Source: a virus
Taxonomy: Duplodnaviria > Caudoviricetes
DNA length: 64,000 nucleotides
Virus record (IMG/VR): IMGVR_UViG_3300020172_002590
Coordinates: 1-64,000 of that record
Strand: one strand, 5' to 3'
Shown here piece by piece: positions 5,413 to 18,856 of the stretch; the stretch's first letter is position 1; every line of letters begins with the position of its first letter. The position numbers were made by a program, and so were the translations under genes. A model generated the notes under the pieces. It made no database searches and was not told the DNA's origin. It saw only the letters and a program-made list of their open reading frames with translations.

Positions 5413-5413
5413 A

Positions 5414-5794: not shown

Positions 5795-5797
5795 ACC

Positions 5798-5998: not shown

Positions 5999-6002
5999 GT
6001 TT

Positions 6003-6071
6003 GTGGAGCGCCTTTTGGCTGTGATATTTCGCAAGATTATCACGGTATTCAGAAGGCGCTTCACTTTTTTT
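6003..6071 (+). terminator. intrinsic terminator with large loop
   Basis: GTGGAGCGCCTTTT...AGAAGGCGCTTCAC followed by T-run. Confidence 0.6.
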
Positions 6072-6137
6072 AAAAAATAACAACTTTCTTTAAAAACTTG
6101 TGATATGCTGTCACAAAGAGCGTAGAAAGGAAAAAGA

Positions 6138-7267: not shown

Positions 7268-7875
7268 TGACTACAATTGTTGCAATTCAGGGTGATGATT
7301 ATTGTGTAGTAGGCACAGATTCTAGAGTTTCATCTTTTGATGAAAGCGGTCTTGCATATCAAATAACAACACTTGGCACTGGTTCGTGTAAAATTTCTCA
7401 AAAGGGAAGATATTTACTAGGAGCTGCTGGAGATGTTAGAGCAATTAATATTCTTCATCATGCCTTTACTCCACCAGTACCACCATTTAAAACTGGCGGA
7501 GAGCAACTTGATGAGTTTATAACAACAAAATTTATACCACAACTTCAAGTTTGCTTTGAGAATACCGGATACGCTATGCCAGATCAAGCAGATGATAAAA
7601 CACATATGTCAGAACATTCATCTACAATTCTAGTAGCAGTTAATGGGGTTGTGTATATTATTGATGGTGACTATTCTTGGACCTCAGATAGAACTGGTAT
7701 CTATGCAATTGGCACTGGTTCTTCATATGCTCTTGGAGCAATTTATGCCATCACTGGTGGAAAACAAATATCAATTCAGAAAGCAAAGCTTGCCATTAAT
7801 AAGGCGCTTTCAATAACATCAAAGTTCGATCCATACACAGGAGCGCCTTTTCAAACTTTTGCACAGGAGCAATAA
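7267..7875 (+). CDS. Ntn-hydrolase, HslV/proteasome beta-subunit-like protease
   Basis: true start MTTIVAIQG..GTDSR with N-terminal Thr nucleophile; AIGTGSSYALGA; FDPYTG. Confidence 0.85.
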   Translation: MTTIVAIQGDDYCVVGTDSRVSSFDESGLAYQITTLGTGSCKISQKGRYLLGAAGDVRAINILHHAFTPPVPPFKTGGEQLDEFITTKFIPQLQVCFENTGYAMPDQADDKTHMSEHSSTILVAVNGVVYIIDGDYSWTSDRTGIYAIGTGSSYALGAIYAITGGKQISIQKAKLAINKALSITSKFDPYTGAPFQTFAQEQ

Positions 7876-8048
7876 TGCCAACTTATCAATATAAATGCCT
7901 TAGTGGTCATGAAGTAGAGGAAACAAGAAAAATTAATGAAGATCAAAAAATGATCTGTTGTCCAATATGCGGAGATGCTTTAAAACCTGTATACTCATCA
8001 CCAGGTGTCCAATTAAAAGGCGGGGGCTTCTATCGGAATAGCCGATAG
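7875..8048 (+). CDS. FmdB-family zinc-ribbon protein
   Basis: MPTYQYKC..GH...CPICG...VYSSPGVQLKGGGFY; below ORF-track cutoff. Confidence 0.85.
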   Translation: MPTYQYKCLSGHEVEETRKINEDQKMICCPICGDALKPVYSSPGVQLKGGGFYRNSR

Positions 8049-8060
8049 TGTATAATTATT

Positions 8061-8158
8061 ACGACACCTCTGGTGTTTGTTACGCAAGTGCAGGCTACCT
8101 TGGGGATCGTTATAGTTACGCCATCGCCCTATGTGAAAACATGGGGCTTTGGTTTTTA
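8061..8158 (+). ncRNA. candidate small structured RNA
   Basis: extended -10 TGTATAAT at 8049-8056, several hairpins, GCCCTATGT-GAAA-ACATGGGGC plus T-run. Confidence 0.4.
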
Positions 8159-8172
8159 CAAGAAAGAAAAAT

Positions 8173-8460
8173 ATGTGTAATGAAAATTATGCTGTAATAC
8201 GAGATATGCAGCAAAGTGTACAAGACTGTGAAAGACAAATCTCTATATGGATGAAAACTGCTGAACAAACAACAATCCAATCTTTCTATGCAAATGCAGA
8301 AAGAGATGCTTATAAAAAGATTATAAGAGAAATTATTGAGGCTATTGAAAACGAAGGACCAGTACCTCACTATCACCATCATGTTATGAGAAAGCATCGC
8401 AGTGAATGGCCGACTTTGTGGAAGGCTATTGATAAGGCAATTGAGAAAATAAATGATTGA
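8173..8460 (+). CDS. hypothetical protein
   Basis: ORF; C-terminal HRSEWPTLWKAID. Confidence 0.7.
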   Translation: MCNENYAVIRDMQQSVQDCERQISIWMKTAEQTTIQSFYANAERDAYKKIIREIIEAIENEGPVPHYHHHVMRKHRSEWPTLWKAIDKAIEKIND

Positions 8461-9016
8461 TTATATTGAAGACCTGATTCCAAAAGAAAAACAGAATCTT
8501 ATTGAAGACTATGTAAAAGATTCGAGTTTCCCCTATAGGTTTCATAAAACTCATATCTATGGACAAGGAGAAACTGGTAATTCTCCACTGCAGTTGACAC
8601 ATCATCTAATGATGTACGGAGAAGAGCGTGTTTCTCCACACTTTCCGATAATAACATCCGTTTATGATAGCTTGATCAAACTTTATGGGAATATCACACT
8701 ATTTCGTGCAAAGGTAAACTGCACCTTCCCTGACCCTACGAGGACTGGATACGAGCCTCAGGAGCCTCATACTGATTTAAAATACGATGATGGTCGTAAG
8801 ATTCCACATCTCGTATGTTTATATTACATAAATGATTCTGACGGACCGACATACTTCTACGATAGAGACAAGATTTCTTTGGCAATTCCTCCAAAAAAGG
8901 GTTCTGCCGTAGTTTTTGATGGTAGTATCATTCATGCGGGTAGTAACCCCATTCATAACCCTTTTAGATTTGCTTTAAATATCAATTTTAGAAAAGGTTT
9001 AAACCAAATTCTATAG
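8453..9016 (+). CDS. 2OG-Fe(II) oxygenase superfamily protein
   Basis: PHTD, CLYYINDSDGPT, VFDGSIIHAG, RFALNINF. Confidence 0.8.
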   Translation: MIDYIEDLIPKEKQNLIEDYVKDSSFPYRFHKTHIYGQGETGNSPLQLTHHLMMYGEERVSPHFPIITSVYDSLIKLYGNITLFRAKVNCTFPDPTRTGYEPQEPHTDLKYDDGRKIPHLVCLYYINDSDGPTYFYDRDKISLAIPPKKGSAVVFDGSIIHAGSNPIHNPFRFALNINFRKGLNQIL

Positions 9017-9025
9017 GAAAGAACA

Positions 9026-9667
9026 ATGCCAGAGTTAAACGCAAATATACCACCAATTGAATGCTATGTAAGAGGCAACTATCTTCGTGATCAAAAGGAT
9101 TCACACGATAAATACTTCCCATGTATGATTTTTGGAGTCGCCTCAATTCAAGGAAGAAGTCCCCTATTTCATTTTCTAATGGAAGATGGCGGTGTTTGGT
9201 GGAGAATGCCAATTAGTGCGTTCTGTGCAGAGCCTGATACCCCTGAAGTGGACATTCACGACCTTGTGTTGTGGAATTCTTTCAGTCCTCATGTGACCGT
9301 AACCGAGTTTCAGGCTATGAGAAACATGAGAATGACATATGTAAGCCGCTCAGGAGAGTTTGTAAAGGGTAAATATCTCTTTACGCTTGACTGGCATGCC
9401 CCAGATGACAATACCACCAACCTTGGATTCAGTACAAATCCCGGTCAACATAAGTGTGGTCATGTAATATTGCGGGATGATGGTAATTTTGCCATTCAGC
9501 CAAATAATCGGGTCCGTCTATTTGACCCTTCATACACGACAAAAGATGGTAACCTTATTGATAGATTCATTAATACAAGAAAATGGGATGTGGAGGATGC
9601 TTCCAAGTGGAGAACTTCCGATGATGACCATTACTATTATGAAATCAATAATAAATTACAAGGATAA
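9026..9667 (+). CDS. conserved phage hypothetical protein
   Basis: long ORF with LNANIPP, HKCGHV, GNFAIQPNNR motifs. Confidence 0.75.
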   Translation: MPELNANIPPIECYVRGNYLRDQKDSHDKYFPCMIFGVASIQGRSPLFHFLMEDGGVWWRMPISAFCAEPDTPEVDIHDLVLWNSFSPHVTVTEFQAMRNMRMTYVSRSGEFVKGKYLFTLDWHAPDDNTTNLGFSTNPGQHKCGHVILRDDGNFAIQPNNRVRLFDPSYTTKDGNLIDRFINTRKWDVEDASKWRTSDDDHYYYEINNKLQG

Positions 9668-9671
9668 ATAA

Positions 9672-9767
9672 ATGGATACAATATATTTAATTGCAGTTGT
9701 TGCGGTTTGGTGGACAGTTGGGCTTTTGTGCGGAATTCTTAGCGAAAGAAGAAAAAGAGGGCGGTAA
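9672..9767 (+). CDS. 31-aa single-TM peptide
   Basis: AAGGA SD; MDTIYLIAVVAVWWTVGLLCGILSERRKRGR. Confidence 0.5.
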   Translation: MDTIYLIAVVAVWWTVGLLCGILSERRKRGR

Positions 9768-9818
9768 AAGGTGAGCAAATCTCATTCGGGTGGCCCCCGA
9801 AAAAGACTAATTGGCTCC

Positions 9819-9858
9819 TTGCTCTCTTGCTCTCTTGCTTCCTTGCTCTCTTGCTCCT
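9819..9858 (+). repeat. 5 x 8-bp tandem repeat (TTGCTCTC)
   Basis: ttgctctc ttgctctc ttgcttcc ttgctctc ttgctcct. Confidence 0.85.
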
Positions 9859-9983
9859 TTATCCGTCATGATTGTGGGGATTCCGTGATATGATGTATTC
9901 CGATATGCTATACATCATCGGATACTTTGTAACAGTGAGCGTTTTTGCCACCGTGATATTTAAATCATTTAAGGATTAGAGAT

Positions 9984-10154
9984 ATGGAAAATCAAATAAG
10001 AAGATATAGACCACTATCATTGGGGAGTTCTAAGAAGCTGAAGCCCATTGAATTGAAATCCCATCCCTCTGATATAAGAGATAATAGATCTTTGATTAAG
10101 GGATTCTCAGAAAGAACCCAAACCCGATTTTATATTAAAAAGAAAGAGATATAA
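9984..10154 (+). CDS. small basic hypothetical protein
   Basis: 56-aa ORF, TAATG-coupled to next gene. Confidence 0.5.
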   Translation: MENQIRRYRPLSLGSSKKLKPIELKSHPSDIRDNRSLIKGFSERTQTRFYIKKKEI

Positions 10155-10564
10155 TGTTAACCAAGTTAATTAAAAAACTAAATCAGATTCTCTCACGAAG
10201 GAATCAGACAACCGTAACAGAGAGTGTCTTCTATGATAGAGACAAGATTGAAGAGATTCAAGCCTTTGTTTATAAAGACCTTGATCTTATCAAGAAGAAA
10301 GCTGCTCGAACCGCTTATATCAAGAATCTTCCTCAACCGCTTTCTGAAGAAGCAATCAAGAAGATTAGAGATAATAAGATGGAATTATCCCGTGAACTTG
10401 ATCGCATGTTGCGAGACAAGCAGCTGAGAGACAAAAAGATTGCCGAGATCCAATTCAACAAGCTCTCCGATCTGCAAAACAAGATTAAGAAGCAGTACCC
10501 CGATATCTCCCCGATCCCTCGTCACCCTTCTACTCCGAAAGACAATGAGACAGATACTCCGTAA
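10154..10564 (+). CDS. hypothetical basic coiled-coil protein
   Basis: 136-aa ORF. Confidence 0.6.
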   Translation: MLTKLIKKLNQILSRRNQTTVTESVFYDRDKIEEIQAFVYKDLDLIKKKAARTAYIKNLPQPLSEEAIKKIRDNKMELSRELDRMLRDKQLRDKKIAEIQFNKLSDLQNKIKKQYPDISPIPRHPSTPKDNETDTP

Positions 10565-10875
10565 AAATTTAATACAAATTTTTGACGGTAAACTCCCGAT
10601 CTCAATTGTGATGAAACTCAACCGAACCCGTTTTTTCTAGCGAAGCAACTTTTCCCCAAATTTTAGTATGCAGTCGTGGAAGGCTATGCATGCATACGGT
10701 CGTGGAGAGTCTTTGTCTGTTCGCGGGGTCAATGCCATCGGATACCCCTGGGGGTACCCCTGCCCGATGAGATCCTGCATATTATGCAAGCTCGCGCCTG
10801 CCTGCCCCCGTAGATAGTGGATATCGTTGCATAAATATGCGGCGGGGTGCATAGAATAAATATGTGCGGGGGGGG

Positions 10876-10904
10876 TTGTGTTGGGTCGCCTATTGGGATA
10901 GTAT
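10876..10904 (+). promoter_or_regulatory. cassette promoter P1
   Basis: TTGTGT-N17-TAGTAT. Confidence 0.7.
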
Positions 10905-10947
10905 TTACTTATCGGGCGGGGCGGTCTCGCCCGATAGAAAGGCAGTA

Positions 10948-11250
10948 ATGCGTTCAGTAAATATGGCAATTGAGGAGGGTCTGGAAAGTGTTCTTTACAC
11001 TGTCGGACACGAATCAGGTCGCCGTTCCGATATTGTCCACTTCCTTTACAAGGAAGATATGGAGACTTATGTCCATTCAATCCTTGTGCCCTTGCACTTG
11101 GAAGATGATGGATTAGACCCCGATGACACCACCTCAATGTTCGCCAAGTATGACAAGTACGGCAACTATGAGGTCATCGTCAATATTGACTCTAAGACAT
11201 GGATTAAGAGTTTCAAGGTCACTGCTACCGAACGGTTCATTCAATACTGA
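10948..11250 (+). CDS. hypothetical protein (cassette 1)
   Basis: AGAAAGG SD before ATG 10948, downstream of P1. Confidence 0.7.
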   Translation: MRSVNMAIEEGLESVLYTVGHESGRRSDIVHFLYKEDMETYVHSILVPLHLEDDGLDPDDTTSMFAKYDKYGNYEVIVNIDSKTWIKSFKVTATERFIQY

Positions 11251-11260
11251 TACCCCGCTT

Positions 11261-11328
11261 GCCCCGCCCGCAAGGGCGGGGCAAGTCCCCCCAATGAGAC
11301 CCCGCCCGCAATGCGGGCGGGGTCTTTC
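11261..11328 (+). terminator. tandem GC-rich hairpins/terminator
   Basis: GCCCCGCCC-GCAA-GGGCGGGGC and AGACCCCGCCCGCA-A-TGCGGGCGGGGTCT-TT. Confidence 0.65.
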
Positions 11329-11649
11329 CATTCCCGCCCCATTCACGCCCGCCCCGCAAACGGCTGCATCGATCGTGCTAGGACCGGGACCGAGCTCTAC
11401 ACCCTGCCATATAACTGTACGCATTTATGGGAATTGAGTATGGTCTCTTTATGTGGTTCTCTACACCACCCCAAATAGAGGCTACAAATTATGGGGATTG
11501 AGTATACGTCAAATTATGGGAAACGCTGGCCTTTCAAATTATGGCAGCCTATTTTTTCGAGGGTGTAGGGAACAAAGGTACGACTTTCTTACACCCTTTC
11601 GTCTGACGGTGTATGTGCGAGAAATTTCAACACAAATTCTGAACAATAG

Positions 11650-11678
11650 TTGTGTTTCCCGATAGTTTCCTGTAATCT
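11650..11678 (+). promoter_or_regulatory. cassette promoter P2 (leaderless)
   Basis: TTGTGT-N17-TAATCT, ATG 6 nt downstream. Confidence 0.75.
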
Positions 11679-11684
11679 AACACT

Positions 11685-12194
11685 ATGACAAAGCGTCAAG
11701 CCAAAGCAGGTAATGGTCGCGTGGTGACCAATACCCCCAAGAGTGCGAAGGGTCAAAGCACAGTTACCAAGTCCGCTGTATTGCGTCACATTGCGACAGC
11801 ACGAACAGTGAACCTTAGTCGTGGAGTAAAGGCACACTACGACAACGAAGGCACACAGCGTTTAGCGGAAGCCATTGTCAAGTCATTCCGTATGCCAACA
11901 CTCACGGAAGCGAAACTTGCCAAGAAAGGCAAGGACATGCCCAAGAGCGCACAAGACGGAGCAATGCGTAGAGAGTTTGCTGTAGCACACAAGGCTATCG
12001 CCATAGACATCTCTATCATTCTCGGAGAGAGAAAGGGTGGACAGATTACACACAACCGCCCTGAGAACAACCTACACATGAAACTCGCAGGTATTGCCGT
12101 AGCAATGGGGCTACCTGCTAAGACTTTCTATCCCGTTCGTTCTGAAGCCGTTCGTGACGGTGAAGTGCCTACGGTGTACATAGTACGCCGATAG
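11685..12194 (+). CDS. basic hypothetical protein, paralog of 14212..14694
   Basis: shared YDNEG, MPT, RREFA, ILGE, H.RPEN, AMGLPA motifs. Confidence 0.85.
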   Translation: MTKRQAKAGNGRVVTNTPKSAKGQSTVTKSAVLRHIATARTVNLSRGVKAHYDNEGTQRLAEAIVKSFRMPTLTEAKLAKKGKDMPKSAQDGAMRREFAVAHKAIAIDISIILGERKGGQITHNRPENNLHMKLAGIAVAMGLPAKTFYPVRSEAVRDGEVPTVYIVRR

Positions 12195-12216
12195 AGCGTT
12201 CATAATCCCCCCATTG

Positions 12217-12246
12217 GAGAGCCTACCCGAAAGGGTAGGCTCTCTC
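12217..12246 (+). terminator. intrinsic terminator
   Basis: GAGAGCCTACCC-GAAA-GGGTAGGCTCTC. Confidence 0.75.
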
Positions 12247-12264
12247 TGTGTGTTATGGTCTGGG

Positions 12265-12302
12265 GTGGTGTGACAAAGCCCCAGGGGGCTTTGTCACACC
12301 AC
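12265..12302. repeat. hairpin element H1 (divergent, perfect 18-bp IR)
   Basis: GTGGTGTGACAAAGCCCC-AG-GGGGCTTTGTCACACCAC. Confidence 0.75.
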
Positions 12303-12364
12303 TTCGTATGAGCGTGTCTCTATGAATAAATTTAGTGCAAATTCCAAAAATAATCAGAGAATAG

Positions 12365-12393
12365 TTGTGTTTCCTACTTTTCCGTGTTACATT
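12365..12393 (+). promoter_or_regulatory. cassette promoter P3 (leaderless)
   Basis: TTGTGT-N17-TACATT, ATG 6 nt downstream. Confidence 0.75.
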
Positions 12394-12399
12394 CAGGGT

Positions 12400-12624
12400 A
12401 TGAGAAACTTTTCATACATCACACCAACACTTGACCACAACCTATTCCTGATTTCATTCGCCCGCCCAATTCGCATTCAGAGCAAGTATCTTGACTGCAT
12501 TGTGCGTAAGCGTTTCAATGACGCAATGTTGCGACACTACTCAGGTACTGTCATCATTTTCAATGTGTCTCAAATTGACGAGCGCAATTTCCGTGTTCTC
12601 TGTCTCGTTACGCCAACAGCGTAG
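12400..12624 (+). CDS. hypothetical protein (cassette 3)
   Basis: leaderless ATG 12400 in frame with ORF 12322..12624. Confidence 0.7.
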   Translation: MRNFSYITPTLDHNLFLISFARPIRIQSKYLDCIVRKRFNDAMLRHYSGTVIIFNVSQIDERNFRVLCLVTPTA

Positions 12625-12640
12625 CGAGATAGAGAGCCAG

Positions 12641-12679
12641 GCAGGTGTAACGCCTTGGCATAGCCAGCGTTACACCTGC
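12641..12679. repeat. hairpin element H2
   Basis: GCAGGTGTAACGC-CTTGGCATAGCCA-GCGTTACACCTGC. Confidence 0.85.
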
Positions 12680-12740
12680 GTCTATGTAGTCACTCACTCA
12701 GGCAAATTTAGTGCAAATTCTGAAAATGTTTCTAGAAAAC

Positions 12741-12768
12741 TTGCTATTCCAAATTTTTCAGTTATACT
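12741..12768 (+). promoter_or_regulatory. cassette promoter P4 (leaderless)
   Basis: TTGCTA-N16-TATACT, ATG 7 nt downstream. Confidence 0.65.
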
Positions 12769-12775
12769 CTTACCT

Positions 12776-13060
12776 ATGAAGAAATACAACTCATTCCAAA
12801 TGACACTTCTACCCGTTCGTGAAAACGAAGCAGGTCGTGACATTTACACCGTAGCCGTAACCATTCCCAACTATGAGTTGGGCGAGGACATTCATTTTCT
12901 CGGACTTTCCGCTCGTCAGGCGTTCATTGACGCAACGGAATTCATCAACGGAATTATCGGGCGTATGTGCGGTTTCTGTAGCGGTGTCACCACTGAAGGC
13001 GATGAGACATTCCGTAGCGCGGGCATCTGCCAGCCCTGCTACGAGAAAATCTCACTCTAA
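12776..13060 (+). CDS. hypothetical protein with C-terminal CxxC...CxxC zinc finger (cassette 4)
   Basis: MKKYNSF...CGFC...CQPC. Confidence 0.75.
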   Translation: MKKYNSFQMTLLPVRENEAGRDIYTVAVTIPNYELGEDIHFLGLSARQAFIDATEFINGIIGRMCGFCSGVTTEGDETFRSAGICQPCYEKISL

Positions 13061-13080
13061 GAAAAGGACAGCACACAGGA

Positions 13081-13112
13081 GAGCGGGTCGCAAGACCCGC
13101 TCTTTTCCTTTT
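13081..13112 (+). terminator. intrinsic terminator (identical copy at 13544)
   Basis: GAGCGGGTC-GCAA-GACCCGCTC-TTTT. Confidence 0.85.
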
Positions 13113-13116
13113 CCGG

Positions 13117-13155
13117 GCAGGTGTAAGAGTTCGGCATAGCCGTTCTTACACCTGC
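13117..13155. repeat. hairpin element H3
   Basis: GCAGGTGTAAGAG-TTCGGCATAGCCG-TTCTTACACCTGC. Confidence 0.85.
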
Positions 13156-13244
13156 TTGTCTAAACACAACATAGAACCAGCTTTTAGTGCAAAAAATTAG
13201 TTGTAGTGTACAAATACTTTTTTCAAGTTTTTTTGGAATTGGGG

Positions 13245-13272
13245 TTGTGTTTGCCTTTGGATTTGTTATGCT
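13245..13272 (+). promoter_or_regulatory. cassette promoter P5
   Basis: TTGTGT-N16-TATGCT. Confidence 0.65.
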
Positions 13273-13310
13273 GTGTGTATGGCAATAGTGCCAGAGTGAA
13301 AGGAACTCCA

Positions 13311-13517
13311 ATGCGAGTCTTTGATAGCCCCGACAACAAACTGTCCGACATTCTTGACCAAATGCAGGCAGAAGCCGTTGCTTGGGAGAGCGTATTCTCA
13401 CCACAGTTCATTGCAGGAATGATTTACGCCTGCGAGTGCCTGCGTAACAGCGCAAGCAACATGAAGGGCAACGGCGTTCTCTTGAACGAAGCAGTCCTAG
13501 TTCGCCCAAAAAAATAG
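13311..13517 (+). CDS. hypothetical protein (cassette 5)
   Basis: AAAGGA SD before ATG 13311. Confidence 0.7.
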   Translation: MRVFDSPDNKLSDILDQMQAEAVAWESVFSPQFIAGMIYACECLRNSASNMKGNGVLLNEAVLVRPKK

Positions 13518-13543
13518 AAAGGAGAGTTTTTCTTCTGCGGGAA

Positions 13544-13574
13544 GAGCGGGTCGCAAGACCCGCTCTTTTGCTTT
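13544..13574 (+). terminator. intrinsic terminator (copy of 13081)
   Basis: GAGCGGGTC-GCAA-GACCCGCTC-TTTT. Confidence 0.85.
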
Positions 13575-13578
13575 CCTG

Positions 13579-13617
13579 GCGGGTGTAGATCTATTGGCTC
13601 CGCCGATCTACACCCGC
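13579..13617. repeat. hairpin element H4
   Basis: GCGGGTGTAGATC-TATTGGCTCCGCC-GATCTACACCCGC. Confidence 0.85.
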
Positions 13618-13656
13618 AGGTACGAAATAACAACACATAAAGATTTGAGTATGTGT

Positions 13657-13685
13657 TTGTAATTGCCTTTAGTAACTGATAGGGT
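13657..13685 (+). promoter_or_regulatory. cassette promoter P6 (leaderless)
   Basis: TTGTAA-N17-TAGGGT, GTG 6 nt downstream. Confidence 0.6.
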
Positions 13686-13691
13686 GAAGCC

Positions 13692-13904
13692 GTGACAAAC
13701 ACACACACGCCGACTGAAGTTACAGAGGCAAAATCAGCACCCCGCTACTACGAAGAATTGGTCAAGGACTTAGTTGAGACCCTTGCCCTCGGAGACTTTC
13801 AGGAACTGTTCCTGAACTTCTTGTCTCACTACGAGGACAACCTTGAGGTTCTCAAGACCGCCCGTATCTGCTACGGAGACCTCATAGCCGAAATCTACGG
13901 CTAA
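13692..13904 (+). CDS. hypothetical protein (cassette 6)
   Basis: leaderless GTG; followed by GACCCCCTCTC...GAGAGGGGGTC hairpin. Confidence 0.7.
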   Translation: MTNTHTPTEVTEAKSAPRYYEELVKDLVETLALGDFQELFLNFLSHYEDNLEVLKTARICYGDLIAEIYG

Positions 13905-13960
13905 GACCCCCAGCCCCCCCAGCGGACCCCCTCTCAGAGCGAGAGGGGGTCTTGCTATTG

Positions 13961-14001
13961 GCGGGTGTAGACGCTCGGCTCCGCTCGACTCCTACACCCG
14001 T
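13961..14001. repeat. hairpin element H5
   Basis: GCGGGTGTAG-N21-CTACACCCGT with central GCTCCGC. Confidence 0.8.
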
Positions 14002-14067
14002 GTAATAAAAGCAAATATACCTTTATGTAGAGTATACAAATTCCAATTGATATTGACTTTGCTGCAG

Positions 14068-14107
14068 GCGGGTGTGGTGCAAAGCAAACGCAGTGATCCA
14101 CACCCGC
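14068..14107. repeat. hairpin element H6 (inverted near-copy of H10)
   Basis: GCGGGTGTGG-TGCAAAGCAAACGCAGTGAT-CCACACCCGC. Confidence 0.8.
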
Positions 14108-14176
14108 GAGCTTGATACGATTGTTCCGAGCGTTTTTAGTGAAAAAATGTAATCAGAAAAAAAATTGTGTTAGTAG

Positions 14177-14205
14177 TTGTATTTACTAATGGAGTGCGTT
14201 AGTAT
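14177..14205 (+). promoter_or_regulatory. cassette promoter P7 (leaderless)
   Basis: TTGTAT-N17-TAGTAT, ATG 6 nt downstream. Confidence 0.75.
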
Positions 14206-14211
14206 GTCCCT

Positions 14212-14694
14212 ATGGCATCAACACCTAAGACTACTGCTAAGCAGGGTCGCAATACCAAGTCCACCCCGACCGCAAAGGTCACCTACACGGCAGTAATGGC
14301 GCACATCGCTAGTGCTCGTAGTTTCCGCCTCGCACAAGGCGCAAAGGCTAACTACGACAATGAAGGCGCACAACTACTCGCAAAGGCTGTCGTGAGAGCG
14401 TCTGCTATGCCAACAATGGCGAGTGAAGGTATCACTACCGACAAGGCTCGCCCAATGGCTCAGGCTCGCCGTGAGTTCGCTCGCAAGCGCAAGGCTCACC
14501 TACTCAATGTTTCCGACATTCTCGGTGAAGGTAAGAACGGCGAGATTATCCACGACCGCCCCGAAAATACCATTCGTATTCGCCTTGCGTCTATTGCTAA
14601 GGCAATGGGACTGCCAGCAGACACCTACTACGCCGTGAGAGCGAATGAGTACGCCGTAGGCGACATTCCGCAAGTGTTCATCGTTCGCAAATAG
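14212..14694 (+). CDS. basic hypothetical protein, paralog of 11685..12194
   Basis: colinear similarity over the full length. Confidence 0.85.
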   Translation: MASTPKTTAKQGRNTKSTPTAKVTYTAVMAHIASARSFRLAQGAKANYDNEGAQLLAKAVVRASAMPTMASEGITTDKARPMAQARREFARKRKAHLLNVSDILGEGKNGEIIHDRPENTIRIRLASIAKAMGLPADTYYAVRANEYAVGDIPQVFIVRK

Positions 14695-14759
14695 CGAACG
14701 CCTAACCGCCCCCCCCCAATGAAGCCCCGCTCGTCTGAGCGGGGCTTCACATCGTATGG

Positions 14760-14798
14760 GCGGGCGTAAGATCTGCGCAAGCTTGATCTTACGCCCGC
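14760..14798. repeat. hairpin element H7
   Basis: GCGGGCGTAAGATC-TGCGCAAGCTT-GATCTTACGCCCGC; preceded by TGAAGCCCCGCTC...GAGCGGGGCTTCA hairpin. Confidence 0.85.
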
Positions 14799-14887
14799 GT
14801 GTAATATTACATTGAGACCTTTATGTTTAGTACATAATTTCAAATTATGATTACCTAGAAAAAATAGAAACATTTTTGGAATTGGGG

Positions 14888-14916
14888 TTGTGTTTCTCTA
14901 TTAGTTTGGTTAGTAT
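14888..14916 (+). promoter_or_regulatory. cassette promoter P8
   Basis: TTGTGT-N17-TAGTAT. Confidence 0.75.
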
Positions 14917-14954
14917 GTACATACAAGGCGCAAGCCCCTAACGAAAGAAAAAAA

Positions 14955-15245
14955 ATGAAAGTTCCACCGCTAAAAGTGCAGACCATTGTCCACCTAGAAA
15001 TGCCGTACGACATGTATCTTTTTGTTCTGTATTGCATGGCAACCTACAACAACCCAACAGATGAAGACGCAAAAGCGCTACATAAGAATGCTTGGGAGTT
15101 TGCAGAGTCATTGGGCGCAGAGTCACCTCACCATTTCATTGCAGAAAATGTTCCGTTTATGAAGAACTACTGCACTCAGTTGTTGCAACTGTCAAGCACA
15201 GCAAAAGAGCAAGCAGACCTCGCTTACTCGGCTCTGTATCGCTAA
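14955..15245 (+). CDS. hypothetical protein (cassette 8)
   Basis: ORF between P8 and TGGGGGCAG...CTGCCCCCA hairpin. Confidence 0.7.
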   Translation: MKVPPLKVQTIVHLEMPYDMYLFVLYCMATYNNPTDEDAKALHKNAWEFAESLGAESPHHFIAENVPFMKNYCTQLLQLSSTAKEQADLAYSALYR

Positions 15246-15281
15246 TCCGTTGGGGGCAGGTAACACTGCCCCCATAAGCGG

Positions 15282-15320
15282 GCAGGTGTAAGGCTCTTGC
15301 TTTGCGAGCCTTACACCTGC
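15282..15320. repeat. hairpin element H8
   Basis: GCAGGTGTAAGGCTC-TTGCTTTGC-GAGCCTTACACCTGC. Confidence 0.85.
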
Positions 15321-15513
15321 GTCTGTAATGTTACACGATCAGAAAAATTGAGTGTGTATATGTAATATTACTTAGCCTATCTTTATGGATGTAATATTAC
15401 AATCCTGAACTTTATGGAGCTGTGTAATATAAGAGATCCTGTGTAACATAAGCTGTAATTTTAGAAAACCCGTGTAATACTAGAAAAAAACCTGAAAAAA
15501 CTTGGAAAGGTAG

Positions 15514-15542
15514 TTGTGTTCCTTAGGTAGTTCCTGTATCTT
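15514..15542 (+). promoter_or_regulatory. cassette promoter P9
   Basis: TTGTGT-N17-TATCTT. Confidence 0.7.
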
Positions 15543-15607
15543 TATAAATACCAAAGGGAAACGCCCCGATGGTGCGGAAAGTATCCGCTAGTTAGATAGG
15601 AAAGACA

Positions 15608-15898
15608 ATGGACTTTGAGTTTATTGACGAAAACGACATTCAGGCTGTACGCCGTGGACGTAAGTCCACAGCCCCCGCCGAATTGGTAGATGCGTTTGCC
15701 AAGATGCCAAAGGGTAAGGCTATTCGCCTTACAGGTCTACGCCAAGACCCAACTAGCCCTGAATATAAGAATGACAAGGCAACGGTCTCTGCCACCATTC
15801 GCACAGCAGGCAAGTTGGCAGGCGTAGCGGTCTCTATCAGTTGGTCACCCGATGGTGTTCCACAGGTAAAGACCAAGATGGTCAAGGCTAAGAAGTAG
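15608..15898 (+). CDS. small basic putative DNA-binding protein, FEFIDE family
   Basis: MDFEFIDE.DI..V.RGRKS...ISWSP.GVPQV; AGGAAAG SD. Confidence 0.85.
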   Translation: MDFEFIDENDIQAVRRGRKSTAPAELVDAFAKMPKGKAIRLTGLRQDPTSPEYKNDKATVSATIRTAGKLAGVAVSISWSPDGVPQVKTKMVKAKK

Positions 15899-15985
15899 CA
15901 CCCCCCGCTACCAGCCTTGATAGGGGCTAGGGTGTCTGTCATCACCCTAGCCCCGCCCCTTACCCCGCCCGCCCTAATCAGGCGG

Positions 15986-16025
15986 GCGGGCGTAATGAAG
16001 TCGTTCCTTTGTTCATTACGCCCGC
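15986..16025. repeat. hairpin element H9
   Basis: GCGGGCGTAATGAA-N12-TTCATTACGCCCGC. Confidence 0.85.
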
Positions 16026-16100
16026 TTTTCTAATCGTAACATTACACACAAATTTAGTATGAATTTGTAATATTACATAGAGTAAATCCTGGAGCTTGAT

Positions 16101-16199
16101 CGTGTAATATAAGAGATCGTGTAATATAAGATCGTGTAATAATAGACCGTGTAACTTTATGTCAAGCTGTGTAACATAAGGGATCCCGTGTAACATAAG
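16101..16199 (+). repeat. six iteron-like direct repeats YGTGTAAYAWAAG
   Basis: copies at 16101, 16118, 16133, 16148, 16168, 16187; similar cluster at 15422-15482. Confidence 0.8.
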
Positions 16200-16246
16200 A
16201 AACGGAGATACTTGCACACTACAACTATTATTTTTTCCGTTTGACG

Positions 16247-16275
16247 TTGTGTTTCCCTATTGGCTCGGATAATCT
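16247..16275 (+). promoter_or_regulatory. cassette promoter P10
   Basis: TTGTGT-N17-TAATCT. Confidence 0.75.
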
Positions 16276-16280
16276 AATAC

Positions 16281-16432
16281 TTGTCAGATTGACACTCGGT
16301 TACGGGGTTCGGTTAGGCAGGTGATTTTCACCTAGCAGTTTCCGCCCGTTTCGGTTCTGACCTAGCAAGAGTGAAGGGTCGTAGTAGGCGCACCATAATC
16401 CCCTACAAGTCACCATTGGCAATGGTGATTAT
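16281..16432 (+). ncRNA. candidate structured 5' leader RNA
   Basis: nested stems GTCAGA/TCTGAC, ACGGG/CCCGT, AGGTGA/TCACCT, GTAG/CTAC, TCACCATT/AATGGTGA; possible CACTC/GAGTG pseudoknot. Confidence 0.45.
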
Positions 16433-16463
16433 TCAAAAAAAACTTTCAAGAAAGGCTTTCATA

Positions 16464-16766
16464 ATGGATTTTGAATTTATTGATGAAGGCGACATTGAAG
16501 GCGTAAAGCGTGGTCGCAAGTCGCAGGTTCCACAAGAACTCATTGACTTGTTCAAGGCTATCCCAGCAGGCAAGGCAGTCCGACTGTCTGAGTTTGCAGG
16601 TGACCCAACAGACCCCGATTACAAGACACACAAGCAGAACGCAGGTTCTACTATCCGTCAGGCTAGTAAGCAGGCAGGCATTGAAATCCGTATTTCATGG
16701 TCGCCCGCAGGCGTTCCGCAGGTGTCTCGTAAAGCGCCTAAAAAGGTCGCCAAGTCTGCCAAGTAA
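16464..16766 (+). CDS. small basic putative DNA-binding protein, FEFIDE family
   Basis: start MDFEFIDEG at 16464 with AGAAAGG SD; close paralog of 15608..15898. Confidence 0.85.
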   Translation: MDFEFIDEGDIEGVKRGRKSQVPQELIDLFKAIPAGKAVRLSEFAGDPTDPDYKTHKQNAGSTIRQASKQAGIEIRISWSPAGVPQVSRKAPKKVAKSAK

Positions 16767-16828
16767 TTAGGCAGGCGTAGCGCACATACCGCCTAGAGTG
16801 CCGAAGCACTGCAACGGTATGGAAAATG

Positions 16829-16870
16829 TAACCCCGACACACTCGCCAAGTGTGTCGGGGTTCTTTTTTT
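16829..16870 (+). terminator. intrinsic terminator
   Basis: AACCCCGACACACT...AGTGTGTCGGGGTT plus T-run. Confidence 0.85.
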
Positions 16871-16882
16871 GCCCGCTTACGG

Positions 16883-16922
16883 GCGGGTGTAGATCACTGC
16901 GTTTGCTACGCACTACACCCGT
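16883..16922. repeat. hairpin element H10
   Basis: GCGGGTGTAG-ATCACTGCGTTTGCTACGCA-CTACACCCGT. Confidence 0.85.
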
Positions 16923-17043
16923 GTAATGTTACACATCTTTATCGTAAATTATAATACATATTTGTAATCACATTATAGCTAATATATTTTATTACCTTTA
17001 TGTAATCTTTATGGGGGTATGTAATATTACATACCATCGCGCA

Positions 17044-17082
17044 AATAAAAAAAAAGAAAGGGTAGCATTTCTGCTACCCTTT
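17044..17082 (-). terminator. intrinsic terminator for 17117..17431
   Basis: AAAGGGTAGCA...TGCTACCCTTT with T-run on minus strand. Confidence 0.75.
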
Positions 17083-17116
17083 CCCGGACTCTTAGTGAAC
17101 TATTTGTTTTATTTAT

Positions 17117-17431
17117 TTAGGAAACTTTTTTCGCGTATGGGACATTCTTTATGTCCCAAGTAATGCGAACCTTTTTCCAACCTGCAATTTTTGCCTGATT
17201 ACGAATAATCGCGGAATTTGCAGCCTTAGCAGTTTTCTTATCTTCCGCCGTAACAAATTCGTCACCCAATGCCAAGTTTGCTACCTTGACAATTTGACCA
17301 ATTTTTGCCTTAGCAAAAAACTCAACCATCTCAGGAATAACGACAGCCTTACGCCCACGCTTTACTGATTCAATTTCTGATTCTTCAATGAACTCAAATG
17401 AGAATCCATTTTCTTCGTTTTTTGGAGCCAT
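17117..17431 (-). CDS. small basic putative DNA-binding protein, FEFIDE family (inverted cassette)
   Basis: FEFIEESEIESVKRGRK...IRNQAKIAG..VRITWD...VP. Confidence 0.85.
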   Translation of the reverse strand: MAPKNEENGFSFEFIEESEIESVKRGRKAVVIPEMVEFFAKAKIGQIVKVANLALGDEFVTAEDKKTAKAANSAIIRNQAKIAGWKKVRITWDIKNVPYAKKVS

Positions 17432-17617
17432 TTTTCTCTCTTTTCTTTTAGTTATTTGGCTATTTATTTGACACGTTCACCGAGTCATTTATCACGATAT
17501 CGGGGAGAATGGCGAACAACTACCGATAAATAAAAAAATATAAAAAAGATCCATTTCTCAACAAAATACGCGATCTAATCCAGGATGTAATATTACAGGG
17601 GTTGTAATATTACACGG

Positions 17618-17655
17618 ATGGGTGTAAGTGAGTCGGTACCCGAACTTACACCCAT
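17618..17655. repeat. hairpin element H11
   Basis: ATGGGTGTAAGT-GAGTCGGTACCCGA-ACTTACACCCAT. Confidence 0.8.
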
Positions 17656-17828
17656 TTGTAATATTACACGATACTATAAAAATATAGTGTGTAATTTAAG
17701 AATTGCTACCTTTATTTCCATCTAATCGCGTATCTAATCCTGGATCTAATTCTTTATCTTTATATACTTTATGGAACCCCCAAACCTTTACAAATTATGT
17801 GAACTTCTAAAAAAGCTATTTCCGCACG

Positions 17829-17857
17829 TTGGAAATCTAATTTCTACACGGTAGGAT
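17829..17857 (+). promoter_or_regulatory. promoter P11 with ATCTAATT spacer motif
   Basis: TTGGAA-N17-TAGGAT. Confidence 0.55.
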
Positions 17858-17919
17858 ATCTATATGGTGAGAAATATCTCAATAAACCAAATCCAATTCA
17901 TAACCGAAAGGAAAATCTA

Positions 17920-18408
17920 ATGTCTCCGATTGAAAACTTATTCAATGAACCAACAAAAGCTTTAGCAATTATTGCACATCTTTCAAAAAATCACGAAATT
18001 GTTGCTACAACAATTACTGAACTTCATATGCAATTAATTAATGCAACTTCTACTGCAAACCAATTAGATAACTTTTTGCAAAAGTTAAATGATATGCAAA
18101 TCCCAAAAAATATGTTTAACAATTTGGAGGCTGCTATTTCTGAACGTCAAAAAATGGAAAATCTTTTAGACAATAATGAAATTAGTCGTGCTGATTTAGA
18201 CCTATACATAATGGAAACCTTTTCTTTAACTGATGACCTTTGTTCAATTGGACAACAATTTGTAACACTTGTTGGAAAAAATGACCAATTTAATCTTCAA
18301 AACATTGTTGTTAACTTTGACACAATTTTTGTAAAACTATATAACCTTTTTCACGAAGTTGCTTTAACCACATTTGAACTTGTTAAAGAATACGGTTCTC
18401 TTAACTAA
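17920..18408 (+). CDS. hypothetical helical protein
   Basis: AAAGGA SD; followed by terminator. Confidence 0.75.
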   Translation: MSPIENLFNEPTKALAIIAHLSKNHEIVATTITELHMQLINATSTANQLDNFLQKLNDMQIPKNMFNNLEAAISERQKMENLLDNNEISRADLDLYIMETFSLTDDLCSIGQQFVTLVGKNDQFNLQNIVVNFDTIFVKLYNLFHEVALTTFELVKEYGSLN

Positions 18409-18425
18409 TAACTAATAAATAACTA

Positions 18426-18455
18426 AAAGGGTAGACGTTTGTCTACCCTTTTTTT
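18426..18455 (+). terminator. intrinsic terminator
   Basis: AAAAGGGTAGAC-GTTT-GTCTACCCTTTT plus T-run. Confidence 0.8.
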
Positions 18456-18856
18456 ATGCCCAAATGCCGGGCGTGTAATATTACACCATTTGTAATATTA
18501 CACGGTGATGGACAAATTGTAGTATGTAATATTACAGTGCTATCTTTATGAAAAACTAAAACTAAATTCTAATCTAAATCCAAATCCTAACATCCCGGCA
18601 CCTTTATGGCGGGGCAATAGGCTTACTAATACTACGTCTGATACCTGATCTATTCCTAGAGGGTATTGACTACCTATAGATAGGTATTACAGCATTGTAA
18701 TTTGCACATTTATAGCCTCAAAACACACACTAAAATTCTCACAAATAAAAACCGCCTGATTTATGAGCATTTTACTGCCTTTTTGATTGATTTTATAAAC
18801 AATTAGTTTGTTTTTTTATATAATTAGTAACATTTTCTCACCTTTATGGGGGGTAC

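What the first reader, a model, noticed from the sequence alone, without database searches (positions are those of the whole stretch)
12265..17655. Eleven copies of a length-conserved, covarying, polar DNA hairpin
H1-H11 are 38-41 bp with arms GCRGGYGTAR...YTACRCCYGC. Both outer and inner stem positions differ between copies yet stay complementary (CAGG/CCTG vs CGGG/CCCG; GTGTAA vs GCGTAA vs GTGTAG; inner CGC, GAG, ATC, GGCTC). In H2, H3, H4, H8, H10 and H11, a 2-5-nt bulge lies 5' of an apical mini-hairpin, mostly with a 3-nt loop (GC-ATA-GC, GC-TCC-GC, GC-TTT-GC). Most sit just downstream of a terminator and lack U-tails, so they are probably not terminators. Structure conserved over sequence, with extrahelical bases, is how integron attC sites and REP/IS200 ends are recognised as folded ssDNA (established). 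These lack the attC AAC/GTT core, so they may be a new site class.
Basis: partly seen in the sequence, partly recalled or inferred. Interest (0 to 1): 0.85.

Follow-up and report, generated by a model that had tools for sequence, protein, structure and literature searches.

The report
Palindrome-plus-promoter joints between phage gene cassettes
The repeated DNA hairpins are real and keep their pairing through matched changes, but each sits at a fixed distance upstream of a promoter-like box, so they look like control and boundary elements of small swappable phage gene cassettes, not integron-type recombination sites.

Summary
All 11 hairpins are at the stated coordinates. Ten match a family model. 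H1 does not, and a degenerate twelfth lies at 11559-11598.

The family recurs as arrays of 3-6 copies in about 16 other IMG/VR contigs of one lineage of ~105-kb freshwater siphoviruses. In each of 3 complete genomes it is confined to one 5-7-kb block. Stem covariation is strong.

New here: a -10-like box (TTTAGTR, TTGAGTR, TATAAT) starts exactly 27 nt after the hairpin in 51 of 57 copies. The distance to the upstream terminator varies from 8 to 56 nt. The hairpin therefore belongs to the promoter side of the next cassette.

- Loops have flipped twice.
- Interior pairs show no G-U bias.
- No integrase, Y1 transposase or sigma factor was found.
- No Rfam family fits.
- Cassettes differ between relatives, with joints in or near the module.

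Best reading: a DNA-level promoter-upstream palindrome within a PeSL-like boundary module. I class it as a new variant of a known kind. The scan has noted similar palindrome-jointed cassette arrays in other phages.

The parts
11559..11598 (+). H0, a degenerate twelfth copy of the hairpin
   Evidence: Model R1 gives E 0.002. The DNA fold is weak, z -2.7.
12265..12302 (+). H1, a perfect 17-18 bp palindrome with GGTGTGAC arms; an outlier to the family
   Evidence: Not hit by model R1 at E <= 0.1. It still has the box 27 nt downstream.
12641..12679 (+). H2 hairpin
13117..13155 (+). H3 hairpin. In other strains about 537 extra letters are joined at 13103-13127, which is the T-run plus the 5' arm.
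   Evidence: read laying records 19 and 23.
13579..13617 (+). H4 hairpin
13961..14001 (+). H5 hairpin. Its box is followed by no gene, so it is probably the remnant of a lost cassette.
14068..14107 (+). H6 hairpin, an inverted copy of H10
   Evidence: 35 of 40 identical to the reverse complement of H10, against 24 of 40 direct.
14760..14798 (+). H7 hairpin
15282..15320 (+). H8 hairpin. A contig of run X11 holds it alone, in different flanks.
   Evidence: loose ends at 15281 and 15319.
15986..16025 (+). H9 hairpin
16883..16922 (+). H10 hairpin, between the convergent genes 16464-16766 (+) and 17117-17431 (-)
17618..17655 (+). H11 hairpin. It lies in the divergent region upstream of gene 17920-18408 and is not 3' of any + strand gene.
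12331..12337 (+). -10-like box TTTAGTG, 27 nt after H1
12707..12713 (+). -10-like box TTTAGTG, 27 nt after H2
13183..13189 (+). -10-like box TTTAGTG, 27 nt after H3
13645..13651 (+). -10-like box TTGAGTA, 27 nt after H4
14028..14034 (+). -10-like box TAGAGTA, 26 nt after H5
14135..14141 (+). -10-like box TTTAGTG, 27 nt after H6
14826..14832 (+). -10-like box TTTAGTA, 27 nt after H7
15348..15354 (+). -10-like box TTGAGTG, 27 nt after H8
16053..16059 (+). -10-like box TTTAGTA, 27 nt after H9
16928..16956 (+). Best sigma-70-like site of the region: GTTACA, 16 nt, TATAAT. The second hexamer is the box 27 nt after H10, and the first lies in the short palindrome that abuts H10.
   Evidence: 10 of 12 matches.
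17683..17689 (+). -10-like box TATAGTG, 27 nt after H11
12216..12255 (+). Terminator-like stem with a weak T-run, before H1
13080..13112 (+). Intrinsic terminator before H3. It has the same stem sequence as the one before H4.
13542..13575 (+). Intrinsic terminator before H4
   Evidence: I25.
13929..13959 (+). Terminator-like stem before H5
16830..16872 (+). Intrinsic terminator before H10
14800..18536 (.). Twelve copies of the 12-bp palindrome TGTAAnnTTACA. It shares the half-site GTGTAA with the hairpin arms, and several copies abut hairpins H7, H8, H10 and H11.
   Evidence: flanks.
10875..16253 (+). Seven + strand copies of GTTGTGTT, a -35-like element of a second promoter. It is followed by 16-17 nt and TAnnnT. 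ATG lies 6-7 nt after the hexamer at genes 11685, 12400 and 12776, which looks leaderless.
   Evidence: 7 of the genome's 11 copies; by eye.
10963..18408 (+). The cassette genes: 10963-11250, 11685-12194, 12400-12624, 12776-13060, 13311-13517, 13692-13904, 14212-14694, 14955-15245, 15608-15898, 16464-16766, 17920-18408, and 17117-17431 on the - strand
   Evidence: ORFs. No Pfam or PHROG family at E <= 0.01 for 9 of the 10 scanned (16464-16766 and 17117-17431 were not scanned); 17920-18408 has only weak hits, DUF3231 (E 2e-4, 21.3 bits, below its 29.6-bit cut-off) and phrog_27884 (E 0.006). Only 15608, 16464 and 17117(-) have homologues in all relatives.

Best explanation
Each hairpin is the upstream, palindromic part of a repeated intergenic module. 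That module cuts a GC-richer block of the phage genome into self-contained single-gene cassettes. Read along the + strand, the module is: terminator of the previous gene; a variable gap; the 38-41-bp GC-clamped palindrome; exactly 27 nt; a -10-like box; in this phage a second promoter; then the gene.

I infer that the palindrome acts on DNA as a cis-regulatory element of the promoter just downstream. It would span roughly -40 to -80 from the predicted start. Most likely it is the binding site of a dimeric or tetrameric regulator that also reads the short GTGTAA-type palindromes beside it. It would also serve as a boundary between neighbouring transcription units. Because the module is repeated, it also supplies the homology at which cassettes are gained, lost and replaced, as PeSL elements do in T4-type phages.

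Shown: the family exists, its stems covary, it is confined to one block per genome, it has a fixed spacing to the box, loops have flipped, and cassettes turn over. Inferred: that the box is a promoter element, that a protein binds the palindrome, and that the folded form is or is not used.
For: Fixed geometry: the box T[TAG][TGA]A[GA]T[AGT] starts at offset 27 in 51 of 57 copies and at 26 in 2 more. In the window this is 10 of 11 at 27 and 1 at 26. The spacer sequences between hairpin and box are unrelated. In the opposite direction no offset has more than 5. By contrast the upstream T-run lies 8 to 56 nt away.

The best sigma-70-like site of the region (10 of 12) uses the H10 box as its -10 and the abutting short palindrome as its -35.

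H11 has no + strand gene upstream but does have one downstream.

The arms share the GTGTAA half-site with 12 TGTAAnnTTACA palindromes found only at 14.8-18.5 kb. In relatives the inner arms carry the lineage's own short motif, GTAAnnTTAC in most and AACGTTAA in L039. That motif also flanks the hairpin on both sides.

Stem sequence is conserved and loops are not, the opposite of what I recall as usual for protein-bound RNA hairpins.

Interior mismatches show no sense-strand wobble bias: G-T 5 against A-C 8.

Model R1 hits fall in one 5-7-kb block in each of 3 complete genomes.

All 6 of 6 loci found through the conserved FEFIDE protein alone carry arrays.

Cassette turnover:
- About 537 extra letters are joined at the 5' arm of H3 in two runs from different studies.
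- One cassette is replaced between 93-95% identical flanks in G001 against G005.
- A cassette is absent in G002 relative to G003, with homology resuming inside a hairpin arm.
Against: No transcript data exist, so neither the promoter nor the absence of the hairpin from RNA is shown.

A plain double-stranded operator does not explain why uncontacted inner positions stay complementary. Either folding or arm-to-arm copying must be added.

The box has T, not A, at its second position in most copies. It fits the -10 consensus only if read two bases further on, so the reading frame is unresolved.

The consensus promoter scan finds fewer sites than shuffles do: 9 against 14.2.

In H1-H6 no -35-like hexamer lies between hairpin and box.

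No binding protein is identified. The FEFIDE model (pLDDT 81) has no structural match: Foldseek E > 0.1 and VIA Z <= 5.5.

The 27-nt spacing could in part be inherited with the duplicated module.
Confidence: 0.55

Rival explanations
1. RNA element. The hairpin is transcribed by read-through of the upstream terminator. It then acts as a second, U-less terminator, an RNase III-type processing site or a 3' stabiliser of the upstream mRNA.
For: It is co-oriented with the genes and lies 5-56 nt after a stem-loop that ends most genes. As RNA the stems are very stable, -20 to -34 kcal/mol. The stems covary. The terminal pair is G..T in 9 copies and A..C in 1 on the sense strand. Four of the upstream stems in the window lack a T-run, so read-through is plausible.
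Against: The spacing is fixed to the downstream box and variable to the upstream terminator. H11 follows no + strand gene. Interior G-U 5 against A-C 8 shows no wobble bias. The terminal G..T is explained by overlap with the TGTAA motif that abuts the 3' end. Loops flip between near-identical relatives. Stem sequence, not loop, is conserved. No T-run follows the hairpins.
Confidence: 0.15
2. Hairpin-form promoter element. Negative supercoiling behind the downstream promoter extrudes the palindrome. The cruciform or single-strand hairpin is what a factor or RNA polymerase recognises, or it buffers supercoiling between cassettes. This is the logic of phage N4 early promoters, applied to a host polymerase.
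For: Complementarity is kept at positions that vary freely. The base has a GC clamp, and in this phage the loops are 3 nt. The position upstream of a promoter-like box is fixed. Loop flips show that the arms interact in vivo.
Against: Loops of 6-12 unpaired nt in most relatives disfavour extrusion. No virion RNA polymerase is present: the 3066-aa ORF matches tape-measure families. The geometry differs from N4, where I recall a 5-7 bp stem close to the start site. Arm-to-arm template switching could keep the complementarity without any use of the fold.
Confidence: 0.1
3. No function of its own. The palindrome is carried along with a duplicating promoter-terminator module. Its arms are kept alike by template switching during replication, which also flips loops.
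For: There are two loop inversions, one of them between loci whose flanks are 150 of 150 and 146 of 150 identical. The copies are paralogous: the terminators before H3 and H4 have the same sequence. Palindrome correction by template switching is a known mutational process (recalled, not read here).
Against: The outer arm, the length and the 27-nt spacing are kept across lineages whose array DNA is only 65-70% identical and whose short flanking motif has changed. The element is present at nearly every cassette boundary in every relative. I recall that long palindromes are usually lost unless selected.
Confidence: 0.13
4. Folded single-strand recombination site. A dedicated enzyme cuts and joins at the hairpins to move cassettes, as at integron attC sites or REP/IS200 ends.
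For: Hairpins stand at cassette boundaries, cassette content differs between relatives, and two joints lie in a hairpin arm. Six copies in this phage have bulges on one strand.
Against: PF00589, PF01797 and PF02407 have no match in 5 of 5 records, 3 of them complete. The PF02407 control rang nowhere, so that blank is weak. Other joints lie 60-185 nt from the hairpin. Bulges are absent in relatives. There is no conserved cleavage-type core, since pair 11 is free. The cassettes carry their own promoter-like elements.
Confidence: 0.07

Closest known systems
PeSL (promoter-early stem-loop) cassettes of T4-type phages. Sources: PMC2839356 (abstract and 12 passages read) and PMC4122927 (abstract read).
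   Same: Both are repeated composite intergenic motifs that combine a stem-loop with a sigma-70-like promoter. Both flank small ORFan genes in hypervariable regions. In both, indels and replacements between relatives have joints in the motif, and no dedicated recombinase is present.
   Different: Here a separate ordinary terminator precedes the module. The palindrome has a sequence-conserved GC-clamped arm kept across diverged lineages. It lies at a fixed 27 nt from the box and is flanked by short operator-like palindromes. The phages are ~105-kb siphoviruses with a DnaE-type polymerase, not T4-like myoviruses. This is therefore an analogue, not a relative.
Integron attC sites (features recalled, not read here)
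   Same: Imperfect palindromes with covarying stems at the boundaries of co-oriented gene cassettes. In this one phage there are extrahelical bases on one strand.
   Different: No integrase. No conserved core sites. The length is 38-44 nt, against my recalled 57-141 nt. The cassettes have their own promoters. The element is tied to the downstream promoter. Bulges are not conserved and loops flip.
REP/BIME elements with RAYT transposases, and IS200/IS605 ends (recalled)
   Same: Intergenic 20-40-nt GC-rich imperfect palindromes, often found after genes.
   Different: No Y1 transposase in the phage. There are 3-11 copies in one block, not hundreds across a chromosome. No arrays turned up in one genome for each of 185,579 species when scanned with one arm variant.
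Hairpin promoters of phage N4 read by the virion RNA polymerase (recalled)
   Same: A DNA hairpin upstream of a start site, in a block of small phage genes.
   Different: No virion polymerase. The stem is 12-18 bp and lies about 40-80 nt upstream, not a 5-7-bp stem next to the start.
Activator or repressor sites centred near -60 of bacterial promoters, and the stoperators of cluster A mycobacteriophages (recalled)
   Same: Sequence-conserved sites at a fixed or oriented position relative to transcription, repeated in intergenic gaps of a phage genome.
   Different: Those sites need no intrastrand complementarity. No binding protein is known here.

Membership tests
Integron attC | A partner tyrosine recombinase (IntI) encoded with the array | tested here: not met
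   PF00589 has 0 matches in 5 of 5 records, 3 of them complete. The control rang in 14 of 14 genomes.
Integron attC | Conserved inverse core and core sites ending in AAC and starting with GTT (recalled) | tested here: not met
   The pair that would give AAC/GTT is C-G in only 15 of 47 copies, G-C in 13 and U-A in 11.
Integron attC | Extrahelical bases at conserved places on one strand | tested here: not met
   5' bulges occur in 6 of 11 window copies. They are absent from most relatives. H6 carries its bulge on the other side.
Integron attC | Mostly promoterless cassettes read from a common promoter | tested here: not met
   Each cassette has a -10-like box 27 nt after the hairpin. In the window most also have GTTGTGTT-N16-17-TAnnnT. 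These are promoter predictions, not measurements.
REP / RAYT, IS200/IS605 ends | A Y1 (HUH) transposase partner | tested here: not met
   PF01797 has 0 matches in 5 of 5 records. The control rang in 6 of 14 genomes. A host-encoded enzyme cannot be excluded.
REP / RAYT | Many dispersed copies in a bacterial chromosome | tested here: not met
   Copies lie in one 5-7-kb block per phage genome. The genome-contig scan with one arm variant gave 37 single hairpins and no arrays.
Intrinsic terminator | A GC-rich stem directly followed by a T-run | tested here: not met
   Only H9 is followed by TTTT, and the other ten are not. None of H1-H11 is listed by the terminator scan.
PeSL-type regulatory cassette | A repeated intergenic motif that joins a stem-loop to a sigma-70-like promoter | tested here: met
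   The hairpin plus a box at 27 nt occurs in 51 of 57 copies. The best consensus promoter of the region uses the H10 box. Promoter activity itself was not tested.
PeSL-type regulatory cassette | It flanks small ORFan genes in a hypervariable region | tested here: met
   9 of the 10 array proteins scanned have no Pfam or PHROG family; the tenth, 17920-18408, has only weak sub-threshold hits. Only the FEFIDE paralogues are shared with all relatives.
PeSL-type regulatory cassette | Indels and replacements between relatives have joints in the motif | tested here: met
   Two joints lie in a hairpin arm. Others lie 60-185 nt away but still inside or beside the conserved module.
PeSL-type regulatory cassette | The stem-loop itself terminates upstream transcription | not testable with these tools
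   No RNA run holds the sequence. Here a separate terminator precedes the palindrome.
PeSL-type regulatory cassette | Belongs to T4-type myoviruses (descent) | tested here: not met
   The phage has a tape-measure protein and a DnaE-type polymerase. The nearest isolates by DnaE are Streptomyces phages at 38% identity.
N4-type hairpin promoter | A virion-carried giant RNA polymerase | tested here: not met
   The only giant ORF (3066 aa) matches tape-measure PHROGs and no Pfam family. The record is 78% complete, but R1-positive complete relatives were not screened for such a gene.
Any Rfam family | A match at the gathering score | tested here: not met
   Only two tRNAs match in the window. At E <= 1 no hit centres on a hairpin; the one hit that touches a hairpin (sX13, 24.3 bits against a 50-bit cut-off) overlaps only the 5' arm of H9.

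The most novel reading that the evidence does not exclude
The palindromes work in folded form. Supercoiling from the neighbouring strong promoters extrudes them, and the hairpin or cruciform is read by a phage protein or by the host polymerase. That would be a structure-dependent promoter and insulator switch. The same folded joints would be the crossover points of an integrase-free cassette-exchange system, driven by strand switching at the arms.
Probability: 0.15. Interest if true: 0.8.

Novelty: new variant of a known kind. Interest (0 to 1): 0.5.

Why it matters
Blocks of small, fast-changing genes are where phages keep host-takeover and counter-defence functions, and how such blocks are wired and reshuffled is known mainly from the PeSLs of T4-type phages. 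This lineage shows a sharper version:
- a sequence-conserved, covarying 39-bp palindrome locked 27 nt from a promoter-like box,
- kept across relatives whose short flanking motifs have changed,
- with direct traces of arm-to-arm exchange (flipped loops) and of cassette gain and loss at the joints.

The element gives a defined cis-element and a simple spacing rule that can be tested with reporters. It is also a search handle (model R1 plus the box) for finding such arrays and their cargo genes in metagenomes. The case also carries a caution: covariation in a DNA palindrome need not mean a folded single-strand recombination site.

Tried and rejected
**Expression data.** No RNA holder is listed for window 11000-18600, so expression, 5' ends and 3' ends could not be examined.

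**Similarity to isolated phages.** The INPHARED phage collection gave no DNA match to 12000-18000 and no tblastn match to the FEFIDE protein.

**FEFIDE as the candidate binder.**
- The profile found no PDB sequence at E <= 1.
- The model has pLDDT 81.3.
- Foldseek against PDB gave nothing at E <= 0.001.
- VIA-align wide gave a best Z of 5.5, within the noise stated by the tool.
- The resemblance of its RGRKS motif to Lsr2/H-NS-type hooks is recalled and stays untested.

**Other protein partners.** No sigma factor was found: PF04542 gave none, and PF04545 gave one hit of 11.5 bits, below the cut-off. The PF02407 blank is uninformative because its control rang nowhere.

**Host or prophage.** One genome-contig scan returned 37 single GC-rich hairpins in unrelated bacteria. 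I read these as ordinary hairpins that share the 10-nt arm by chance.

**Loci dropped.** L012, L014, L018, L034, L036 and L042-L045 (GC up to 69%, a single site, mostly no inner stem) were dropped as unrelated before all counts.

**Terminal G..T as RNA evidence.** I first took the terminal G..T pair as evidence for an RNA wobble. I rejected this once the abutting TGTAA motif explained it.

**Scripts and scans that did not help.** My first regex for the box was wrong and found 19 of 54. ORF-length orientation of loci was ambiguous and was replaced by tblastn with FEFIDE. L040 was oriented only afterwards, by the box. The consensus promoter scan is not enriched over shuffles.

**T5 comparison.** The repeats of the T5 injection-stop region (bioRxiv 10.1101/866236, passages read) are only a loose analogy.

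**Literature.** Searches found no description of this hairpin family. The library lacks most subscription journals, and supplements were closed. The one hit for the 12-bp palindrome (PMC2532739, one passage) is an unrelated Shewanella motif.

Full report
**What the window is.** The window is the first 64 kb of an 81,457-bp IMG/VR virus record rated 78% complete. The record encodes:
- a 3066-aa protein that matches tape-measure PHROGs, plus tail-fibre proteins;
- a DnaE-type polymerase, a DnaB-like helicase, a RecA-like protein, a C5 methyltransferase and several GT4 glycosyltransferases;
- ThyX and nucleotide-modification-type genes upstream of the array;
- two tRNAs.

The nearest isolated phages by DnaE are Streptomyces phages at 38% identity. 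The host is unknown.

**The observation.** The arm pattern occurs 17 times against 0.23 expected and nowhere else in the 81 kb. All 11 fold as single-stranded DNA better than shuffles. The 5' bulge with an apical mini-hairpin is reproduced in H2, H3, H4, H8, H10 and H11.

Model R1, built from 47 distinct copies, recovers 10 of the 11 and adds a degenerate copy at 11559-11598. It misses H1, whose arms differ.

The array lies in a block of 46-52% GC. The rest of the genome is 30-39%. Relatives show the same contrast.

**Relatives.** Three exact-arm scans of IMG/VR and one protein-based scan brought in about 16 further contigs with arrays of 3-6 such hairpins spaced 0.5-2 kb apart. Three of these are complete genomes of 105.7-108.7 kb.

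R1 hits in the complete genomes fall in one block each: G001 at 8.5-12.9 kb, G002 at 99.4-102.9 kb and G006 at 84.3-90.3 kb.

Single-site hits in GC-rich contigs were set aside as unrelated.

Only one gene family of the array is shared by all relatives. It is a ~100-aa protein with an N-terminal FEFIDE...RGRKS motif, present as two forward copies and one reversed copy. The other cassette genes are lineage-specific and have no Pfam or PHROG family. All 6 of 6 loci found through that protein alone carry hairpin arrays. All of them are one lineage, so this co-occurrence is not independent.

**Structure conservation.** On the 47 copies:
- 92.2% of cells pair, against 75.3% after shuffling (0 of 500 shuffles reach it).
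- 126 cells carry changes on both sides, against 41.7.
- Sliding the partner by 1-3 columns drops pairing to 29-49%.
- Pairs 11 and 12, which were not used to find the copies, each take four pair types.

Orthologous copies show matched double changes. L037:1732 and L041:3717 have nearly the same loop, but their inner stems read CTTTT/AAAAG and GGTTT/AAACC.

The outer arm GCRGGYGTAA is kept in every lineage. Loops are not conserved, and the bulge with mini-hairpin is peculiar to this phage and its nearest relative.

**What ties the hairpin to its surroundings.** Three observations bear on this.

- *Upstream side.* Most hairpins follow a GC-rich stem-loop that ends the previous gene, often a canonical terminator. 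The T-run lies anywhere from 8 to 56 nt before the hairpin.
- *Downstream side.* A box matching T[TAG][TGA]A[GA]T[AGT] (TTTAGTR, TTGAGTR, TATAATA, TATAGTG) starts exactly 27 nt after the hairpin in 51 of 57 copies and 26 nt after it in 2 more. The spacers are of unrelated sequence. Reading the other way, no offset collects more than 5. In the window this is 10 of 11 at 27 and one at 26. The rule holds in L039 and L040, whose short flanking motifs differ.
- *Link to a promoter.* At H10 the box is TATAAT. Together with GTTACA 16 nt upstream, inside the short palindrome that abuts the hairpin, it is the best sigma-70-like site of the region at 10 of 12.

H11 was puzzling as a 3' element because no + strand gene precedes it. 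It simply stands upstream of gene 17920-18408.

The hairpin therefore belongs to the 5' end of the next cassette. If the box is a -10 element, the palindrome spans about -40 to -80.

**Link to the short palindromes.** Twelve copies of TGTAAnnTTACA occur only at 14.8-18.5 kb. Several abut hairpins. They share the GTGTAA half-site with the arms.

In relatives such a motif flanks the hairpin on both sides, and the inner arm often contains a full copy of it. In L039 the flanking motif is AACGTTAA-type and so is the inner arm. This pattern is what a DNA-binding regulator and its sites would produce. No such protein is identified. The FEFIDE family is the obvious local candidate, but its predicted fold matches nothing informative.

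**DNA or RNA.** Against an RNA role:
- the geometry described above;
- conserved stems with free loops;
- no sense-strand wobble bias at interior pairs, G-T 5 against A-C 8;
- a terminal G..T excess (9 to 1) that is accounted for by overlap with the abutting TGTAA motif;
- two loop inversions.

The inversions are these. H6 is the reverse complement of H10: 35 of 40 against 24 of 40 direct. L084:7644 and L085:6307 have flanks 150 of 150 and 146 of 150 identical, yet their loops match only as reverse complements, 37 of 39 ungapped.

R1, which was trained on sense-oriented copies, still scores the sense strand higher in 8 of 9 distinct new copies. The exception is the flipped one. Some asymmetry therefore exists, but it is tolerated in either direction.

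No RNA data exist, so read-through transcripts that contain the hairpin cannot be excluded.

**Recombination.** Cassettes turn over.
- Contigs from two runs of different studies carry about 537 extra letters between window positions 13127 and 13103. The joint therefore falls in the T-run plus the 5' arm of H3.
- Another run lacks 17669-18538, with its joints next to two short palindromes.
- One contig holds H8 alone, in different flanks.
- G001 and G005 are 93-95% identical on both sides of a cassette replaced by unrelated sequence (550 against 310 nt). Homology ends about 60 nt after one hairpin and resumes about 133 nt before the next.
- G002 lacks a cassette present in G003, and homology resumes inside a hairpin arm.

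Joints thus lie in or near the repeated module but not at one nucleotide. No tyrosine recombinase, Y1 transposase or Rep was found in 5 records, 3 of them complete. This fits homologous or template-switch exchange at repeated modules, as described for PeSLs (PMC2839356 abstract and passages; PMC4122927 abstract). It does not fit attC-type site-specific recombination.

**What remains unexplained.** A duplex operator does not need complementary inner arms. Either the folded form matters, or the arms are kept alike by strand switching, which the flipped loops show does occur. I cannot separate these two readings by computation. I give the folded-form reading 0.10-0.15.

**Verdict.** The attC/REP analogy is not supported. 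The best-supported reading is a DNA-level, promoter-upstream palindrome inside a PeSL-like boundary module of a cassette array. I class it as a new variant of a known kind, conserved across a lineage of freshwater siphoviruses.

The scan has already noted comparable palindrome-jointed cassette arrays in other phages, and the FEFIDE paralogues in two relatives. Those notes were not checked here.

Noticed in passing
window 10500-17000; L083 3001-9000; L015 (reverse strand) 3001-10000: The cassette block is 40-54% GC in phages whose remaining genome is 27-39% GC. The contrast recurs in two relatives and is unexplained.
   Followed up: partly
window 15608-15898, 16464-16766, 17117-17431(-): Three paralogous ~100-aa proteins with FEFIDE...RGRKS...WSPxGVPQV are the only array genes shared by all relatives. 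The model has pLDDT 81 and no informative structural match. They are the local candidates for binding the palindromes.
   Followed up: partly
window 15400-15480 and 16090-16200: Arrays of 3-6 direct repeats of the CGTGTAATATAAGA type (single GTGTAA half-sites) lie upstream of the two forward FEFIDE genes, like iterons or autoregulatory sites.
   Followed up: no
window 11650-11687, 12365-12402, 12741-12778: Three genes have ATG only 6-7 nt after a TAnnnT hexamer that follows GTTGTGTT or CTTGCT by 16-17 nt, so their mRNAs would be leaderless. This hints at a host that translates leaderless mRNA well.
   Followed up: no
window 14020-14027, 14819-14826, 15381, 15410, 16996, 17007 and others: A further box, CYTTTATG, recurs next to the -10-like box: directly before it in some copies and 8-10 nt after its start in relatives.
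   Followed up: no
G000 72124-81324 (-), beyond the window: A 3066-aa tape-measure protein, which implies a very long tail. Earlier notes of this scan propose cargo domains within it.
   Followed up: no
window 13961-14107: H5 and H6 stand 66 nt apart with a box but no gene between them, which looks like the scar of a lost cassette.
   Followed up: no
window 16950-17116: The promoter-like site after H10 points into the 3' end of the reversed gene 17117-17431 and could make an antisense transcript.
   Followed up: no
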